Shown: piece by piece, positions 34,831-37,680 of the stretch
Position numbering within the stretch: position 1 is the first letter of the stretch
How the letters are laid out: every line of letters begins with the position of its first letter
Source of the DNA: Escherichia phage vB_EcoM-UFV06
Length of the DNA: 64,000 nt
Sequence record: OP555980.1
Direction: 5' to 3' (one strand)
Notes under the pieces: model-generated
The model's database searches: none
Seen by the model: the letters and a program-made list of their open reading frames with translations, nothing else
Told to the model about the DNA's origin: nothing
Position numbers and translations under genes: made by a program

Positions 34831-35304
34831 TTATTTGATTTGTTTAGCAGACCAAATGCGGTCTTTAATAATTTTTTGGATGTCTTCAACATACTCAAGA
34901 GAATGAGCATGTGGGTTATCTTTAAAGCTATGAGCACGAGCTAGCTTTTGGCCTTCAGTTTTGATTACTAAAAGCTCTTTAAGGATAGCTTCATATTTGG
35001 AGATAATTCCTTTAACGATATTTTTTTCTTGTGCGACTTTAGGATCTGCTTTAGGAGCAGGTTTACCCGAAGCCTTTGCAAAAGCAGCGCCAGTAGCAAC
35101 TAAACTTTTCCAGGCCATACTAACTGCATTTCCCGTAAATCCTTCCGCTTTCATGTCGCGTGCGAACTGGAATCGTGATTCATCAGAAGCATCTTTGTAA
35201 GAATATTTACCCGCTGCAATGGCTGCTTTTGCGACAGCTTGAATTTCGGTGCTAGATGCTTCATTTAACACCGCTTCATTTAAAAATTGAGTATATGATT
35301 TCAT
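34831..35304 (-). CDS. Putative capsid-targeted internal protein (157 aa), function unknown
   Basis: N-terminus MKSYTQFLNE resembles the capsid targeting sequence with an L-x-E site; late promoter upstream; flanked by duplicated terminators. Confidence 0.5.
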   Translation of the reverse strand: MKSYTQFLNEAVLNEASSTEIQAVAKAAIAAGKYSYKDASDESRFQFARDMKAEGFTGNAVSMAWKSLVATGAAFAKASGKPAPKADPKVAQEKNIVKGIISKYEAILKELLVIKTEGQKLARAHSFKDNPHAHSLEYVEDIQKIIKDRIWSAKQIK

Positions 35305-35340
35305 CTTATTTCCTGTTTTAATTCGTGGATTTAATATACT

Positions 35341-35348
35341 TATTTATA
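35341..35348 (-). promoter_or_regulatory. Late promoter box TATAAATA
   Basis: Perfect TATAAATA on the minus strand about 36 bp upstream of the ATG at 35304. Confidence 0.55.
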
Positions 35349-35350
35349 CT

Positions 35351-35381
35351 AAAAAGCCCCAACCTTTTGGTCGGGGCTAAG
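35351..35381 (-). terminator. Intrinsic terminator, copy 2 of the 31-bp direct repeat
   Basis: Minus-strand 10-bp stem, AAAA loop, then UUUUU. Confidence 0.7.
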
Positions 35382-35429
35382 CCTTGCGGCAACCTTGTCG
35401 GGGTTCCACCTGCTAAGGCAAGTGTTTGT

Positions 35430-35521
35430 ACGAAACGCCGGGATTCGAACCCGGTTATTAAGCAGTTGACGCTACTCAATATTTTTAAAAGGCCATATCT
35501 CGACCATATCCGAACGTTCCG
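35430..35521 (-). ncRNA. Candidate tRNA-like/structured small RNA
   Basis: Canonical T-arm ccggg-TTCGAAT-cccgg with an acceptor-like 7-bp pairing, but no clean D or anticodon arm; T4 is reported to encode stable RNAs near its tRNAs. Confidence 0.3.
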
Positions 35522-35685
35522 TCAAAAACGCTACTCGGCTTACGGCAAAGATATTTCCTCGAATCGATAATTCGGTGCGCCGTTTCTGCTGTGATAGTAA
35601 AGAGCCAGAACACAGTAAAACTGTGGGAGGAAACTATACTCCAGGGAACATCAGTCCGACGACTTACCGGTAGCGACCCGGTTTC

Positions 35686-36036
35686 TTAGTATTCTTTTAA
35701 AGCATCAATTTGTTCACGGCGTTTACGCCATAAATCAATTGCTTCATAAGCAGATTCAGCATTTCGAATTAGCCGACATTTATATAAAGACTTGTGATTT
35801 TGGTATTGCGTAGATAATGGAATTTTATCTAAAAGGTCTTTGCGTTCAAAGTATTCGTAACCATCTAAACCAAATGAACGATTTTTGAGAAATTGCCAAT
35901 GACCATATTCGTTTTCGACATAAACATAATCTGCATGCTGATAAAGCAAATTAATTACACGTTCAGAAATAACAGTATCATTATGATTAAAATAGAATGT
36001 TAAATCATGAACTACTAAATAAACATTACCTTTCAT
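35686..36036 (-). CDS. Hypothetical protein (116 aa)
   Basis: ORF immediately downstream of tRNA-Arg. Confidence 0.45.
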   Translation of the reverse strand: MKGNVYLVVHDLTFYFNHNDTVISERVINLLYQHADYVYVENEYGHWQFLKNRSFGLDGYEYFERKDLLDKIPLSTQYQNHKSLYKCRLIRNAESAYEAIDLWRKRREQIDALKEY

Positions 36037-36054
36037 ATTTTCCTCACTTATAAT

Positions 36055-36130
36055 TGGTCGAGGCAGTAGGGATCGAACCTACGACCCAGGACTTAGAAGG
36101 TCCTTGCTCTTCCTTCTGAGCTATGCCCCG
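36055..36130 (-). tRNA. tRNA-Arg (anticodon UCU)
   Basis: Hand-folded cloverleaf; anticodon loop CUUCUAA; CCA encoded. Confidence 0.8.
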
Positions 36131-36134
36131 TAAT

Positions 36135-36210
36135 TGGGGTGACCGATGGGAGTCGAACCCATGACTACGAGAATCACAATCTCGAGTTCTACCAACTGAA
36201 CTACGGCCAC
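36135..36210 (-). tRNA. tRNA-His (anticodon GUG)
   Basis: Cloverleaf; anticodon stem CGAGA/UCUCG, loop UUGUGAU; discriminator C73; no encoded G-1. Confidence 0.75.
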
Positions 36211-36324
36211 ATTAATACCTACTCCAACAATCATGATGTCTTCACACGAAATTAAGAGAAGAGTGATCAGTTCAACCCCTATAATCGCGTCAAGTAGATA
36301 TTAATGTGACAGTTGTCACAAATT

Positions 36325-36399
36325 TGGCGGACGTGATAGGATTCGAACCTATAACCAATCGCTTAACAGGCGATCGCTCTGCCATTGAGCTACACATCC
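36325..36399 (-). tRNA. tRNA-Asn (anticodon GUU)
   Basis: Cloverleaf; anticodon stem AUCGC/GCGAU, loop CUGUUAA. Confidence 0.75.
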
Positions 36400-36403
36400 A
36401 AAT

Positions 36404-36490
36404 TGGTGGGGAGTGATGGAGTCGAACCACCCGAGTCGCAATGACAATGAATTTACAGTCCACACCGCTACCTCTACGGGATAACTCCCC
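36404..36490 (-). tRNA. tRNA-Tyr (anticodon GUA), class II, probable
   Basis: 87 nt with long variable arm; GACUGUAAAU anticodon region as in bacterial tRNA-Tyr; anticodon stem has two G-U pairs. Confidence 0.55.
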
Positions 36491-36496
36491 TTAATT

Positions 36497-36571
36497 TGGT
36501 GGCCCTGGGTGGAATTGAACCACCATCTGGCGATTATGAGTCGCTTGCTTGAACCTTCCAGCTACAGGGCC
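36497..36571 (-). tRNA. tRNA with anticodon CAU (Ile2 or Met)
   Basis: Cloverleaf; loop CUCAUAA; T4 tRNA-Ile is reported to use a modified CAU-type anticodon. Confidence 0.7.
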
Positions 36572-36572
36572 T

Positions 36573-36648
36573 TGGTGCTGATTGACGGAATCGAACCGCC
36601 GACATCCTCATTACAAGTGAGGTGCTCTACCTACTGAGCTAAATCAGC
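36573..36648 (-). tRNA. tRNA-Thr (anticodon UGU)
   Basis: Cloverleaf; loop CUUGUAA. Confidence 0.8.
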
Positions 36649-36653
36649 AAAGC

Positions 36654-36743
36654 TGGCGGAGGCGATAGGATTTGAACCTATGAATCGCCGGAGCGACTGC
36701 CGGTTTTCAAGACCGGTGCATTAAACCACTCTGCCACGCCTCC
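36654..36743 (-). tRNA. tRNA-Ser (anticodon UGA), class II
   Basis: 90 nt; anticodon stem CCGGU/ACCGG, loop CUUGAAA; long variable arm. Confidence 0.8.
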
Positions 36744-36745
36744 AG

Positions 36746-36819
36746 TCTCCATACAAGGATTTGAACCTTGGACCTCCTGATCCCAAATCAGGCGCTCTAC
36801 CAAACTGAGCTACACGGAG
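36746..36819 (-). tRNA. tRNA-Pro (anticodon UGG)
   Basis: Cloverleaf; loop UUUGGGA; CCA not encoded. Confidence 0.75.
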
Positions 36820-36829
36820 TAAATTAAAT

Positions 36830-36903
<74 letters not shown>

Positions 36904-36908
36904 AAATT

Positions 36909-36995
36909 TGGTGCGAGAAGTGGGACTCGAACCCACAAGGAAATCATTCCGCAGCATTTTAAGTGCTGTGCCTTTACCAATTTGACCATTCTCGC
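36909..36995 (-). tRNA. tRNA-Leu (anticodon UAA), class II
   Basis: 87 nt; anticodon stem CAGCA/UGCUG, loop CUUAAAA. Confidence 0.8.
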
Positions 36996-36996
36996 G

Positions 36997-37069
36997 CTGG
37001 GAATAAAGGATTCGAACCTTTGCATCTAGCAGTCAAAGTGCTATGCCTTACCAACTTGGCTAATTCCCA
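36997..37069 (-). tRNA. tRNA-Gln (anticodon UUG)
   Basis: Cloverleaf; anticodon stem UAGCA/UGCUA, loop CUUUGAC; CCA not encoded. Confidence 0.75.
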
Positions 37070-37155
37070 ATTATTAACAAAGGCTCTTTAGCAAGAACCC
37101 TTGATGATAGAGGGTATTAATCAGTGCGGTATGAGTTAATAATAACAAATAATTC

Positions 37156-37680
37156 TTAAAGCAAATTAAACATTTTAACAGTCGGCAAAACAATTTCTTT
37201 TTCTATATAAGAGTATTTAACACTCTCAACTACACGCAAAAAATCATAATCATAATACTCAGAAGCACTGCCTAAAATATTAATAAGTCCTTCAAGCACT
37301 TTATTACCATTCACAAAGAATAAGTCAAATACACGTTCTTCGTCTTCTTCGGATTTATTACCAAGGTCAACTTCTATGTCAAAGACCTTTTTAATGAATT
37401 CTGGATAAAGTTGTTCTGAGAACAGTCCTTCAACCAAGTATTCATAAATAAAAAGCGATTGCTCGCTGAACAAGCCATTACCACAATAACGTTCAGCTTT
37501 AGTACTAGAATGTCTGCTTTTAAACTTCTTTAAAAGATATTGGAATTGTAAGATTTCATGCTCTTCTACGCCAAACAGTGTTTTAGTTTTATAGTTGTCA
37601 CCATCATTTTCCCAGGTAGTGACATCAATTACGTAACCCTGTGGAATTGTAGTACCTAAACAAATATTCATTTTCACCAC
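37156..37680 (-). CDS. Hypothetical protein (174 aa)
   Basis: ORF upstream of the tRNA cluster. Confidence 0.45.
   Translation of the reverse strand: MVKMNICLGTTIPQGYVIDVTTWENDGDNYKTKTLFGVEEHEILQFQYLLKKFKSRHSSTKAERYCGNGLFSEQSLFIYEYLVEGLFSEQLYPEFIKKVFDIEVDLGNKSEEDEERVFDLFFVNGNKVLEGLINILGSASEYYDYDFLRVVESVKYSYIEKEIVLPTVKMFNLL

What the first reader, a model, noticed from the sequence alone, without database searches (positions are those of the whole stretch)
36135..36490. Three additional tRNAs with GUN anticodons (His, Asn, probable Tyr) inserted between the CAU tRNA and tRNA-Arg
Hand-folding gives 11 tRNAs on the minus strand. Eight (Gln, Leu, Gly, Pro, Ser, Thr, CAU-type Ile/Met, Arg) match the T4 set as I recall it. 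The other three sit together: His GUG at 36135..36210, Asn GUU at 36325..36399, and a class II tRNA with the bacterial tRNA-Tyr anticodon region at 36404..36490. These are three of the four tRNAs carrying queuosine-type G34-U35 anticodons, the substrate class of colicin E5-type anticodon nucleases. A phage-borne set of exactly these could replace host tRNAs cut or depleted by a tRNA-targeting defense, or could simply serve codon adaptation.
Basis: partly seen in the sequence, partly recalled or inferred. Interest (0 to 1): 0.7.

Follow-up and report, generated by a model that had tools for sequence, protein, structure and literature searches.

The report
Known extra tRNAs in T4-like phage
The three extra tRNA genes (Tyr, Asn, His) are real, but they are an already annotated, variable part of the tRNA cluster of T2/T4-type phages; only the tyrosine tRNA has a demonstrated anti-defence role, and that role does not depend on the shared anticodon type.

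Summary
The window is 100% identical over the 2 kb compared to Escherichia phage vB_EcoM-UFV09 (Tequatrovirus), whose GenBank record already annotates these tRNAs.

They are not an insertion into a T4-like array. In T4 this slot holds the homing endonuclease gene segB. The whole block from the CAU tRNA to tRNA-Arg here is the T2-type allele: 100% identical to T2, only 61-62% to T4. The 3' end of tRNA-Asn is the published preferred SegB cleavage site.

The trio is not one unit. About three quarters of Tequatrovirus records carry Tyr+Asn and about one third also carry His. T6 has Tyr only and T4 has none. His travels separately with a 95-nt structured leader shared with Klebsiella and Enterobacter T4-like phages.

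The tRNA-Tyr is 98.9% identical to T6 tRNA-Tyr, which counters Septu (PtuAB) cleavage of the tRNA-Tyr variable arm (Chihara 2026).

The queuosine/colicin E5 idea is not supported. Asp is absent, and the anticodon loops equal the host's.

Side observations: the phage tRNA-His lacks the encoded G-1, and the leader looks like an undescribed structured RNA.

The parts
36404..36490 (-). tRNA-Tyr (GUA), class II, encoded CCA. Its variable arm is 2 nt longer than that of E. coli tRNA-Tyr.
   Evidence: ARAGORN. Identity to T2 and RB14 is 100%, T6 98.9%, an rV5-like phage 95.4%, T5 84.4% and E. coli tyrT 66.3%. Cloverleaf covariation is shown. The Rfam tRNA model score is below threshold.
36325..36399 (-). 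tRNA-Asn (GUU), encoded CCA.
   Evidence: ARAGORN. Rfam 74.1 bits. 100% identical to T2 and RB14, 61.8% to E. coli asnT.
36323..36349 (-). 27-bp sequence GGTTCGAATCCTATCACGTCCGCCAAA at the 3' end of tRNA-Asn. It fits the published preferred SegB homing-endonuclease recognition site.
   Evidence: Sequence. The consensus GGTTCRANTCC...CCAR and the discriminating bases G6, A16, G18, A26, A27 come from PMC2330249. One search shows 100% identity between the T2 record PV958097 and the window over Tyr+Asn; the site was mapped in strain T2L, so equivalence is inferred.
36211..36305 (-). Conserved 95-nt structured element (three-way junction: a 14-bp closing stem plus two hairpin arms). It ends exactly at position -1 of tRNA-His.
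   Evidence: Fold z-score -3.7. Found in 355 phage records. 88% of cells are paired against 32-47% in slid controls, 7 pairs change on both sides, and two helices are 100% paired. No Rfam match. Single copy in the window by covariance-model search.
36135..36210 (-). tRNA-His (GUG), with C73 and encoded CCA but T instead of G at position -1.
   Evidence: ARAGORN. Rfam 65.1 bits. 97-99% identical to the tRNA-His of Enterobacter phage SonariX and the Jiaodavirus KpnM6E1, 79% to E. coli hisR. Covariation is shown.
36497..36571 (-). CAU-anticodon tRNA (Met/Ile type), T2-type allele. It forms the left edge of the variable block.
   Evidence: ARAGORN. 61.0% identical to T4 tRNA-Ile(CAU), 100% to T2.
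36055..36130 (-). tRNA-Arg (UCU), T2-type allele. It forms the right edge of the variable block.
   Evidence: ARAGORN. 62.5% identical to T4 tRNA-Arg, 100% to T2 except 1 nt in the acceptor stem.
36573..37069 (-). Six tRNAs shared with T4: Thr, Ser, Pro, Gly, Leu and Gln.
   Evidence: ARAGORN. 95.6-100% identical to the T4 genes.
35355..35686 (-). Downstream end of the same operon: stable RNAs rnaD (35574-35686) and rnaC (35429-35567), then a terminator-like hairpin (35355-35378).
   Evidence: blastn against T4 rnaD gives 78.8% and against rnaC 98.6%.

Best explanation
These are three genuine, co-transcribed phage tRNA genes. They lie in the hypervariable slot of the Tequatrovirus tRNA operon, and this phage carries the segB-free, T2-type allele of that slot.

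What sits in the slot is set largely by the homing endonuclease SegB. Its preferred cleavage site lies in the 3' end of tRNA-Asn. Phages invaded by segB have lost Asn (T6) or both Tyr and Asn (T4).

The three tRNAs have separate histories and probably separate roles.

1. tRNA-Tyr belongs to a phage-specific tRNA-Tyr family shared by T2, T6, T5, rV5-like and FelixO1-like phages and phage-plasmids. It supplies extra tRNA-Tyr when PtuAB nucleases (Septu, retron-Eco7) cut host tRNA-Tyr in the variable arm. This was shown experimentally for the near-identical T6 gene and is inferred here.

2. tRNA-Asn most likely tops up supply for the AT-rich phage proteome, which uses Asn 1.6 times and AAU 3.4 times as often as the host sample. 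This is inference; no defence target is known.

3. tRNA-His came in as a separate module together with a 95-nt structured leader RNA. Its role is unknown. It lacks the encoded G-1 that E. coli HisRS normally needs, so efficient charging is in doubt.
For: Identity of the genes:
- ARAGORN, Rfam and covariation confirm them.
- The window is 100% identical to UFV09 over the 2 kb compared, and that record annotates the tRNAs.

Slot architecture:
- T4 has Ile-segB-Arg.
- T6 has Met-Tyr-segB-Arg.
- T2 and RB14 have Met-Tyr-Asn-Arg.
- The window has Tyr-Asn-element-His.
- The CAU and Arg tRNAs are T2-type alleles.
- The window has no segB homologue (tblastn).

SegB:
- Its preferred site lies in the tRNA-Asn of T2L, RB1 and RB3, and segB homing erases the T2L markers (PMC2330249).
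- The window's Asn 3' end fits that site.

Distribution in the phage collection:
- 519 records carry the Gln-Leu-Gly block.
- 395 carry Tyr+Asn.
- 186 carry all three.

tRNA-Tyr:
- It differs from T6 tRNA-Tyr by 1 nt, and its variable arm and T arm are identical to T5's.
- T6 tRNA-Tyr overexpression or amplification rescues infection from Septu, and a T6 mutant deleted for the whole tRNA-rich region is more sensitive.
- T4, which lacks tRNA-Tyr, could not escape Septu, and T2 is resistant (PMC13096335).
- T5 tRNA-Tyr counters retron-Eco7 (PMC11555353).
- A phage-tRNA library screen against PtuAB also returned tRNA-Tyr (PMC12445682).

Codon demand.

His module: shared with Jiaodavirus, Karamvirus and Gelderlandvirus.
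Against: - No expression, charging or phenotype data exist for this phage.
- Septu also cleaves T6 tRNA-Tyr, so protection depends on dosage. This phage has a single copy and no segB to amplify it.
- The reason T2, which has an identical tRNA-Tyr, resists Septu was not established in the paper.
- Which state of the slot is ancestral is inferred from homing-endonuclease biology, not from a phylogeny.
- The record counts include duplicate GenBank/RefSeq entries and use approximate denominators.
- The codon-supply argument fails for His.
Confidence: 0.8

Rival explanations
1. Tyr, His and Asn form a functional set of queuosine-class (G34-U35) tRNAs that replaces host tRNAs cut by a colicin E5-type anticodon nuclease used as a phage defence.
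For: All three have GUN anticodons with U33-G34-U35. Asn and Tyr are also adjacent in unrelated phages: a FelixO1-like phage has Asn-Tyr-Asp in a row and a phage-plasmid has Asn-Tyr-Thr. Phage tRNAs are established counter-measures to tRNA nucleases (PMC11555353, PMC11464382, PMC12445682).
Against: - tRNA-Asp(GUC) is absent from the array.
- The three are not inherited together; T6, T2/RB14, REP3 and the window all differ, and His has a different origin.
- The anticodon loops (CUGUAAA, UUGUGAU, CUGUUAA) are identical to those of E. coli tyrT, hisR and asnT, so an enzyme that reads the anticodon should cut the phage copies as well.
- The one demonstrated nuclease target, tRNA-Tyr, is cut in the variable arm.
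- No E5-type phage defence turned up in the papers read. E. coli tRNA-His and both phage and host tRNA-Asn served only as negative controls in rescue tests.
Confidence: 0.07
2. Pure translational supply. All three tRNAs are kept only to match the codon and amino-acid demand of an AT-rich phage, with no role in defence evasion.
For: The window's ORFs use Tyr 4.69% and Asn 6.18% against 2.60% and 3.77% in a 42-gene E. coli sample. UAU is 2.6 times and AAU 3.4 times as frequent. The eight classical T4 tRNAs are usually explained the same way (established knowledge).
Against: His is used less than in the host (1.78% vs 2.60%), and CAU is about equal. T4, with the same composition, grows without all three. 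Experimental data give tRNA-Tyr a defence phenotype. The variable arm of tRNA-Tyr is invariant across unrelated E. coli phage families while its stems co-vary, which points to selection on the site that PtuAB cleaves.
Confidence: 0.2
3. Selfish-element bookkeeping. Presence or absence of these tRNAs reflects only whether SegB homing and recombination have overwritten the slot, and the tRNAs themselves are close to neutral passengers.
For: The tRNA region is dispensable for T4 growth, and segB is inherited at nearly 100% in T4 x T2L crosses with loss of the T2L markers (PMC2330249). The slot has mosaic architectures.
Against: The cloverleaves are maintained by compensatory changes across genera. 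Tyr+Asn persist in about three quarters of records despite SegB pressure. tRNA-Tyr has a measured benefit against Septu.
Confidence: 0.15

Closest known systems
tRNA gene region of phage T2/T2L, also RB1, RB3 and RB14 (Brok-Volchanskaya et al. 2008, PMC2330249)
   Same: Same operon and same segB-free allele. The CAU tRNA, Tyr and Asn are 100% identical to T2, and Arg differs by 1 nt. tRNA-Asn carries the preferred SegB site. A small ORF lies between Arg and rnaD.
   Different: The window additionally has tRNA-Thr (absent from the T2 record), the 95-nt element and tRNA-His between Asn and Arg. T2 and RB14 go directly from Asn to Arg.
T6 tRNA-Tyr, anti-Septu (Chihara et al. 2026, PMC13096335) and T5 tRNA-Tyr, anti-retron-Eco7 (Azam et al. 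2024, PMC11555353)
   Same: The tRNA-Tyr here differs from T6's by one T-stem base. It shares an identical variable arm and T arm with T5's.
   Different: T6 has segB next to Tyr and escapes by SegB-driven tandem amplification; this phage has no segB. T5 drives its tRNA-Tyr from its own strong promoter; here Tyr sits 6 nt after the preceding tRNA inside the operon. No phenotype was tested for this phage.
Phage T4 tRNA cluster (eight tRNAs, segB, rnaC, rnaD)
   Same: Six tRNAs are 95.6-100% identical. rnaC is 98.6% identical. Gene order and strand are the same.
   Different: T4 has segB in place of Tyr-Asn-element-His. Its CAU and Arg tRNAs are only about 61-62% identical, and its rnaD only 78.8%.
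Colicin E5 substrate class (tRNA-Tyr, His, Asn and Asp with Q34-U35; established knowledge)
   Same: Three of the four isoacceptor types are present, with unaltered U33-G34-U35 anticodon loops.
   Different: Asp is missing. There is no co-inheritance, no loop divergence from the host, and no evidence of an E5-type phage defence.
tRNA arrays of Jiaodavirus, Karamvirus and Gelderlandvirus (Klebsiella, Enterobacter and Salmonella T4-like phages)
   Same: They share the 95-nt element plus tRNA-His module. The element is 79-89% identical and the tRNA-His of SonariX and KpnM6E1 97-99% identical.
   Different: There the module follows tRNA-Gln and precedes tRNA-Ser inside much larger arrays.

Membership tests
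Canonical bacterial-type tRNA genes (Rfam RF00005) | Cloverleaf with an anticodon loop, called by a tRNA finder | tested here: met
   ARAGORN calls all three with anticodons gtg, gtt and gta. tRNAscan-SE annotation is present in the identical GenBank record.
Canonical bacterial-type tRNA genes (Rfam RF00005) | Covariance-model score at or above the gathering threshold (29 bits) | tested here: inconclusive
   His scores 65.1 bits and Asn 74.1 bits, so both pass. Tyr fails; its best clan hit is tRNA-Sec at 29.9 bits against a gathering score of 47. This is consistent with a weak, shifted D-stem and a long variable arm.
Canonical bacterial-type tRNA genes (Rfam RF00005) | Stems maintained by compensatory substitutions among homologues | tested here: met
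   Tyr: 12 of 22 pairs change on both sides. His: 11 of 22. Asn was not tested this way because its close homologues are identical.
E. coli-type tRNA-His identity set | Genome-encoded G-1 pairing with C73 | tested here: not met
   Position -1 is T, while C73 is present. E. coli hisR has G-1. Position -1 is also T in all six other phage tRNA-His genes compared, and in 11 of 19 tRNA-His genes found inside tRNA arrays in IMG/VR.
segB-free (T2-type) allele of the Tequatrovirus tRNA slot, the SegB homing target | No segB between the CAU tRNA and tRNA-Arg | tested here: met
   tblastn of T4 SegB against the whole window finds nothing at E<=1. The slot is filled by tRNAs.
segB-free (T2-type) allele of the Tequatrovirus tRNA slot, the SegB homing target | tRNA-Asn carries the 27-bp preferred SegB site (GGTTCRANTCC...CCAR with G6, A16, G18, A26, A27) | tested here: met
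   GGTTCGAATCCTATCACGTCCGCCAAA lies at 36349-36323. The criteria come from PMC2330249. The T2 record PV958097 is 100% identical over Asn.
segB-free (T2-type) allele of the Tequatrovirus tRNA slot, the SegB homing target | Actual cleavage by SegB and loss of the block in crosses with T4 | not testable with these tools
   This needs an in vitro cleavage assay or co-infection experiments.
Phage tRNA-Tyr that counters PtuAB nucleases (Septu, retron-Eco7) | Sequence membership in the T6/T5 phage tRNA-Tyr family, including the distinctive variable arm | tested here: met
   98.9% identical to T6 and 84.4% to T5, with the segment TTGTCATTGCGACTCGGGTGGTTCGACTCCATC identical to T5. Only 66.3% identical to E. 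coli tyrT.
Phage tRNA-Tyr that counters PtuAB nucleases (Septu, retron-Eco7) | Rescue of infection on PtuAB-expressing hosts | not testable with these tools
   Shown for the T6 and T5 genes only (PMC13096335, PMC11555353).
Phage tRNA-Tyr that counters PtuAB nucleases (Septu, retron-Eco7) | High dosage, through a dedicated strong promoter (T5) or SegB-driven amplification (T6) | tested here: not met
   The gene is single copy. It starts 6 nt after the preceding tRNA, so there is no room for its own promoter. The window has no segB.
Replacement set against a colicin E5-type (Q34-U35) anticodon nuclease | All tRNAs of the substrate class present (Tyr, His, Asn, Asp) | tested here: not met
   There is no tRNA-Asp in the window.
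Replacement set against a colicin E5-type (Q34-U35) anticodon nuclease | The set is inherited as a unit | tested here: not met
   395 records carry Tyr+Asn and 186 carry all three. T6 has Tyr only. REP3 has Tyr, Asn and the element but no His. The His module is shared with other genera.
Replacement set against a colicin E5-type (Q34-U35) anticodon nuclease | Phage copies differ from host copies at the nuclease recognition site (anticodon loop) | tested here: not met
   The seven-base anticodon loops are identical to those of E. coli tyrT, hisR and asnT.
Replacement set against a colicin E5-type (Q34-U35) anticodon nuclease | Selective advantage on hosts that express such a nuclease | not testable with these tools
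   This needs plaque assays with deletion mutants.

The most novel reading that the evidence does not exclude
The His module is a new kind of RNA unit rather than a plain decoder. It consists of a 95-nt structured RNA that ends exactly at position -1 of a tRNA-His, and that tRNA-His, like a whole clade of phage tRNA-His genes, lacks the encoded G-1 identity nucleotide. The leader could be a processed stable small RNA or a 5'-end processing device. The G-1-less tRNA-His could be poorly charged and act as a decoy or sensor for a host factor. Separately, tRNA-Asn or tRNA-His could be supply tRNAs against tRNA-targeting defences that have not yet been identified.
Probability: 0.2. Interest if true: 0.65.

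Novelty: already known. Interest (0 to 1): 0.3.

Why it matters
For the finding as written, little is new:
- The genes are annotated in this exact genome and in hundreds of relatives.
- Tyr and Asn were described in T2L in 2008.
- The anti-defence role of the T-even tRNA-Tyr was published in 2026.

The value of the check is in three corrections:
- T4's eight-tRNA set is the minority state, shaped by a homing endonuclease, not the baseline.
- The three tRNAs have independent histories.
- The queuosine-class link is not what the known defence recognises.

Two by-products may deserve their own follow-up. One is a conserved structured RNA in the tRNA arrays of several T4-like genera with no Rfam family. 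The other is a clade of phage tRNA-His genes without G-1, which raises the question of whether and how these tRNAs are charged in enterobacteria.

Tried and rejected
- Rfam at permissive thresholds over 35200-37300 gave nothing beyond tRNAs. The sub-threshold hits (Plastid-ycf2, sX4, YrlA) all overlap tRNA genes. There was no hit on the 95-nt element.
- The 95-nt element is not related to the T4 stable RNAs rnaC or rnaD; only chance 5-7-mers matched.
- The spacer is not a sigma-70 promoter. The consensus scan found no minus-strand site there, and total hits equalled the shuffled expectation.
- The spacer is not a protein-coding gene. A 41-codon ORF runs from the element through tRNA-His, but its ATG is TTG in REP3 and the downstream sequence is not conserved where His is missing.
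- An IMG/VR pattern scan for more distant copies of the element returned only T4-like contigs plus chance matches.
- Literature searches for a phage tRNA-His without G-1 found nothing relevant. A search for Tequatrovirus Tyr/Asn/His tRNAs was swamped by mitochondrial genome papers.
- The PARIS, Schlafen and OLD papers report no defence that targets tRNA-His. E. coli tRNA-Asn was cleaved by P2-OLD in vitro, more slowly than tRNA-Thr, but phage tRNA-Asn gave no rescue.
- The ORF between Arg and rnaD (35686-36036) belongs to a PHROG of unknown function and has no Pfam match.
Full report
1. OBSERVATION

- Arg-UCU 36055-36130
- His-GUG 36135-36210
- Asn-GUU 36325-36399
- Tyr-GUA 36404-36490 (87 nt, class II)
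- CAU tRNA 36497-36571
- Thr, Ser, Pro, Gly, Leu and Gln, running up to 37069

The Rfam tRNA model passes its gathering score for ten of them, including His (65.1 bits) and Asn (74.1 bits). Tyr does not pass. At permissive settings its best hit in the tRNA clan is tRNA-Sec at 29.9 bits, E = 0.0024.

Tyr is nevertheless a real tRNA. tRNAscan-SE calls it in the GenBank record. An alignment of nine tRNA-Tyr genes, eight from phages or a phage-plasmid plus E. coli tyrT, folds into a class II cloverleaf in which 12 of 22 pairs keep pairing through changes on both sides. The tRNA-His family gives 11 of 22.

2. WHAT THE WINDOW IS

The 2-kb region is 100% identical to Escherichia phage vB_EcoM-UFV09 and its sister isolates (genus Tequatrovirus). 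It is 95-97% identical to dozens of other T-even-type phages. Those records already annotate tRNA-Tyr, tRNA-Asn and tRNA-His. The operon continues downstream through a 116-codon ORF, then rnaD and rnaC, to a terminator-like hairpin.

3. NOT AN INSERTION INTO A T4 ARRAY

The slot between the CAU tRNA and tRNA-Arg has several architectures:
- T4: the GIY-YIG homing endonuclease gene segB.
- T6: tRNA-Tyr followed by segB.
- T2 and RB14: Tyr-Asn, then Arg directly.
- REP3: Tyr-Asn-element, then Arg, with no His.
- The window: Tyr-Asn-element-His.

The flanks are not conserved either. The window's CAU tRNA is 61.0% and its tRNA-Arg 62.5% identical to T4's, but both match T2's, while the other six tRNAs are 95.6-100% identical to T4's. 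The whole CAU-to-Arg block is therefore an alternative, T2-type allele.

This matches Brok-Volchanskaya et al. 2008:
- T2L, RB1 and RB3 lack segB and the flanking T4 tRNA genes, and carry extra tRNAs (Met, Tyr, Asn and an Arg isoacceptor).
- The preferred SegB cleavage site is a 27-bp sequence inside tRNA-Asn.
- In T4 x T2L crosses segB is inherited at nearly 100%, with loss of the T2L markers.

The window's tRNA-Asn ends in GGTTCGAATCCTATCACGTCCGCCAAA. That fits the consensus GGTTCRANTCC...CCAR and the five discriminating bases G6, A16, G18, A26 and A27. The window contains no segB homologue. The T6 sequence tracks the window through tRNA-Tyr and the 5-nt spacer, then diverges exactly where tRNA-Asn would begin.

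4. DISTRIBUTION

Counts in the phage collection:

| Feature searched | Records |
|---|---|
| Conserved Gln-Leu-Gly block | 519 |
| Tyr+Asn pair, at least 80% covered | 395 |
| Whole Tyr-Asn-spacer-His stretch | 186 |
| Spacer element at 90% identity or more | 197 |

So roughly three quarters of the genus has Tyr+Asn and about one third also has His. T4's eight-tRNA set is the minority state. These are approximate counts that include duplicate GenBank and RefSeq records.

5. THE THREE tRNAs HAVE DIFFERENT RELATIVES

Identity of each window tRNA to its relatives:

| tRNA | Comparison | Identity |
|---|---|---|
| Tyr | T2, RB14 | 100% |
| Tyr | T6 | 98.9% |
| Tyr | rV5-like phage | 95.4% |
| Tyr | about 110-kb E. 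coli phage-plasmid | 93.1% |
| Tyr | T5 | 84.4% |
| Tyr | FelixO1-like phage | 81.8% |
| Tyr | E. coli tyrT | 66.3% |
| Asn | T2, RB14 | 100% |
| Asn | other phage Asn genes | about 70% |
| Asn | E. coli asnT | 61.8% |
| His | Enterobacter phage SonariX, Klebsiella Jiaodavirus KpnM6E1 | 97-99% |
| His | E. coli hisR | 79% |

The tRNA-Tyr variable arm TGTCATTGCGACTC is invariant, or differs by one base, in all the E. coli phage versions, while the anticodon and acceptor stems co-vary. It is 2 nt longer than the host's.

tRNA-His is always preceded in those genera by the same roughly 95-nt leader.

6. FUNCTION

Tyr has direct published evidence.
- Chihara et al. 2026 show that Septu (PtuAB) cleaves tRNA-Tyr in the variable arm during T6 infection.
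- T6 tRNA-Tyr overexpression rescues plating.
- A deletion of the T6 tRNA-rich region increases sensitivity.
- Escape mutants amplify a Tyr-segB repeat.
- T4, which has no tRNA-Tyr, could not escape. T2 is resistant.
- Septu also cuts the phage tRNA-Tyr, so protection is a matter of dosage.
- Azam et al. 2024 show the same logic for T5 tRNA-Tyr against retron-Eco7 PtuAB.
- A phage-tRNA library screen against PtuAB again returned tRNA-Tyr. The same approach returned tRNA-Lys for PARIS and tRNA-Thr(UGU) for OLD.

Transfer of this role to the window's gene, one base different from T6's and identical to T2's, is an inference.

For Asn and His I found no defence target in the papers read.

Codon demand, measured on 90 window ORFs against 42 E. 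coli genes:

| Amino acid | Window | E. coli sample |
|---|---|---|
| Tyr | 4.69% | 2.60% |
| Asn | 6.18% | 3.77% |
| His | 1.78% | 2.60% |
| Asp | 6.41% | 5.39% |

UAU is 2.6 times and AAU 3.4 times as frequent as in the host sample, while CAU is about equal. Supply therefore plausibly explains Asn and contributes to Tyr, but it does not explain His.

7. THE QUEUOSINE / COLICIN E5 IDEA

The anticodons are indeed GUN. Against the idea:
- tRNA-Asp is absent.
- The trio is not co-inherited.
- His has a separate origin.
- The seven-base anticodon loops equal the host's, so an anticodon-reading enzyme should cut the phage copies as well.
- The known nuclease for Tyr reads the variable arm.

One point is in its favour. 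Asn and Tyr are neighbours in unrelated elements: Asn-Tyr-Asp in a FelixO1-like phage and Asn-Tyr-Thr in a phage-plasmid. I did not test whether this exceeds chance.

I rate the idea at about 0.07.

8. SIDE OBSERVATIONS INSIDE THE FINDING'S COORDINATES

(a) A conserved structured RNA. The 95 nt at 36211-36305 (minus strand) form a conserved structure.
- It has a 14-bp closing stem and two inner arms.
- The fold z-score is -3.7.
- On 11 sequences from five phage groups, 88% of cells pair, against 32-47% when partners are slid. Seven pairs change on both sides, and two helices pair in 100% of cells.
- Several invariant G-U pairs make the structure specific to the tRNA-sense strand, which points to RNA rather than DNA.
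- It has no Rfam match and no similarity to rnaC or rnaD.
- It is single copy in the window, and absent from the T4, T6, T2, RB14 and T5 loci.
- It occurs in 355 phage records.
- It usually abuts tRNA-His, but it precedes tRNA-Arg in REP3, tRNA-Gln in the Vequintavirinae phage W70, and tRNA-Asn in STP4-a.
- Its function is unknown. A processing signal or a processed stable RNA are the obvious candidates.

(b) A tRNA-His without encoded G-1. The gene has T at position -1 (ATTAAT|GTGGCC), with C73 and an encoded CCA. E. coli hisR encodes G-1.
- All six other phage tRNA-His genes compared also have T at -1, including a Mydovirus and a mycobacteriophage.
- In an IMG/VR sample, solitary tRNA-His genes have G-1 in 28 of 29 cases. 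These are probably mostly host genes at prophage edges; that reading was not checked. Genes inside tRNA arrays split 11 T to 8 G.
- G-1 is the major HisRS identity element (PMC9976931). Whether this tRNA is charged is therefore an open question. I found no paper that addresses it.

9. VERDICT

They are already annotated and largely explained, as the segB-free T2-type allele of a known hypervariable tRNA slot. tRNA-Tyr is a member of a phage tRNA family with a published anti-PtuAB role.

Novelty: already known. Interest: about 0.3, most of it coming from the two side observations.

Noticed in passing
window 36211-36305 (minus strand): A conserved 95-nt structured RNA-like element lies between tRNA-Asn and tRNA-His and ends exactly at His position -1. 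It is a three-way junction with compensatory changes, occurs in 355 phage records across Tequatrovirus, Jiaodavirus, Karamvirus, Gelderlandvirus and one Vequintavirinae phage, and has no Rfam family. Its hairpin loops carry the palindromes UGAUCA or UCAUGA.
   Followed up: partly
window 36210-36211 (minus strand; 5' end of tRNA-His): The tRNA-His gene has T rather than G at position -1, so it lacks the encoded G-1 identity nucleotide that E. coli hisR has. All six other phage tRNA-His genes compared directly also have T at -1, as do 11 of 19 tRNA-His genes found inside tRNA arrays in IMG/VR.
   Followed up: partly
window 36055-36130 and 36497-36571: The tRNA-Arg(UCU) and the CAU tRNA are only about 61-62% identical to their T4 counterparts but match T2's. 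The 'T4 set' is therefore really two allelic versions of the block around the segB slot.
   Followed up: yes
window 36404-36490; loci L010, L011, L012, L014, L041: The variable arm of the phage tRNA-Tyr (TGTCATTGCGACTC) is essentially invariant across unrelated E. coli phage families (T-even, T5, rV5-like, FelixO1-like) and in roughly 110-kb phage-plasmids, while the stems co-vary. This is the arm that PtuAB nucleases cut.
   Followed up: partly
L012 211-462 (FelixO1-like phage) and L014 527-773 (E. coli phage-plasmid pEC881_2): Asn and Tyr tRNAs are adjacent in unrelated elements: Asn-Tyr-Asp in the FelixO1-like phage and Asn-Tyr-Thr in the phage-plasmid. Whether this adjacency exceeds chance was not tested.
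   Followed up: no
window 36306-36319 (minus strand): A small perfect hairpin (GUGACA-AC-UGUCAC) lies just after tRNA-Asn and before the 95-nt element. It is present in Tequatrovirus, REP3 and STP4-a but not in the Klebsiella or Enterobacter phage versions.
   Followed up: no
window 35686-36036 (minus strand): A 116-codon ORF sits inside the tRNA operon between tRNA-Arg and rnaD. It is absent from T4 at this position, present in T2, and belongs to phrog_3355 (unknown function) with no Pfam match.
   Followed up: partly
window 35429-35686 (minus strand): The stable RNA rnaC is 98.6% identical to T4's, but the neighbouring rnaD is only 78.8% identical. The two RNAs of unknown function evolve at very different rates.
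   Followed up: no
L021 (Escherichia phage REP3) 253-378; L018 (Salmonella phage STP4-a) 351-380: These relatives keep the 95-nt element but have lost tRNA-His, leaving a short GTG... remnant. The element can therefore persist without the tRNA.
   Followed up: partly
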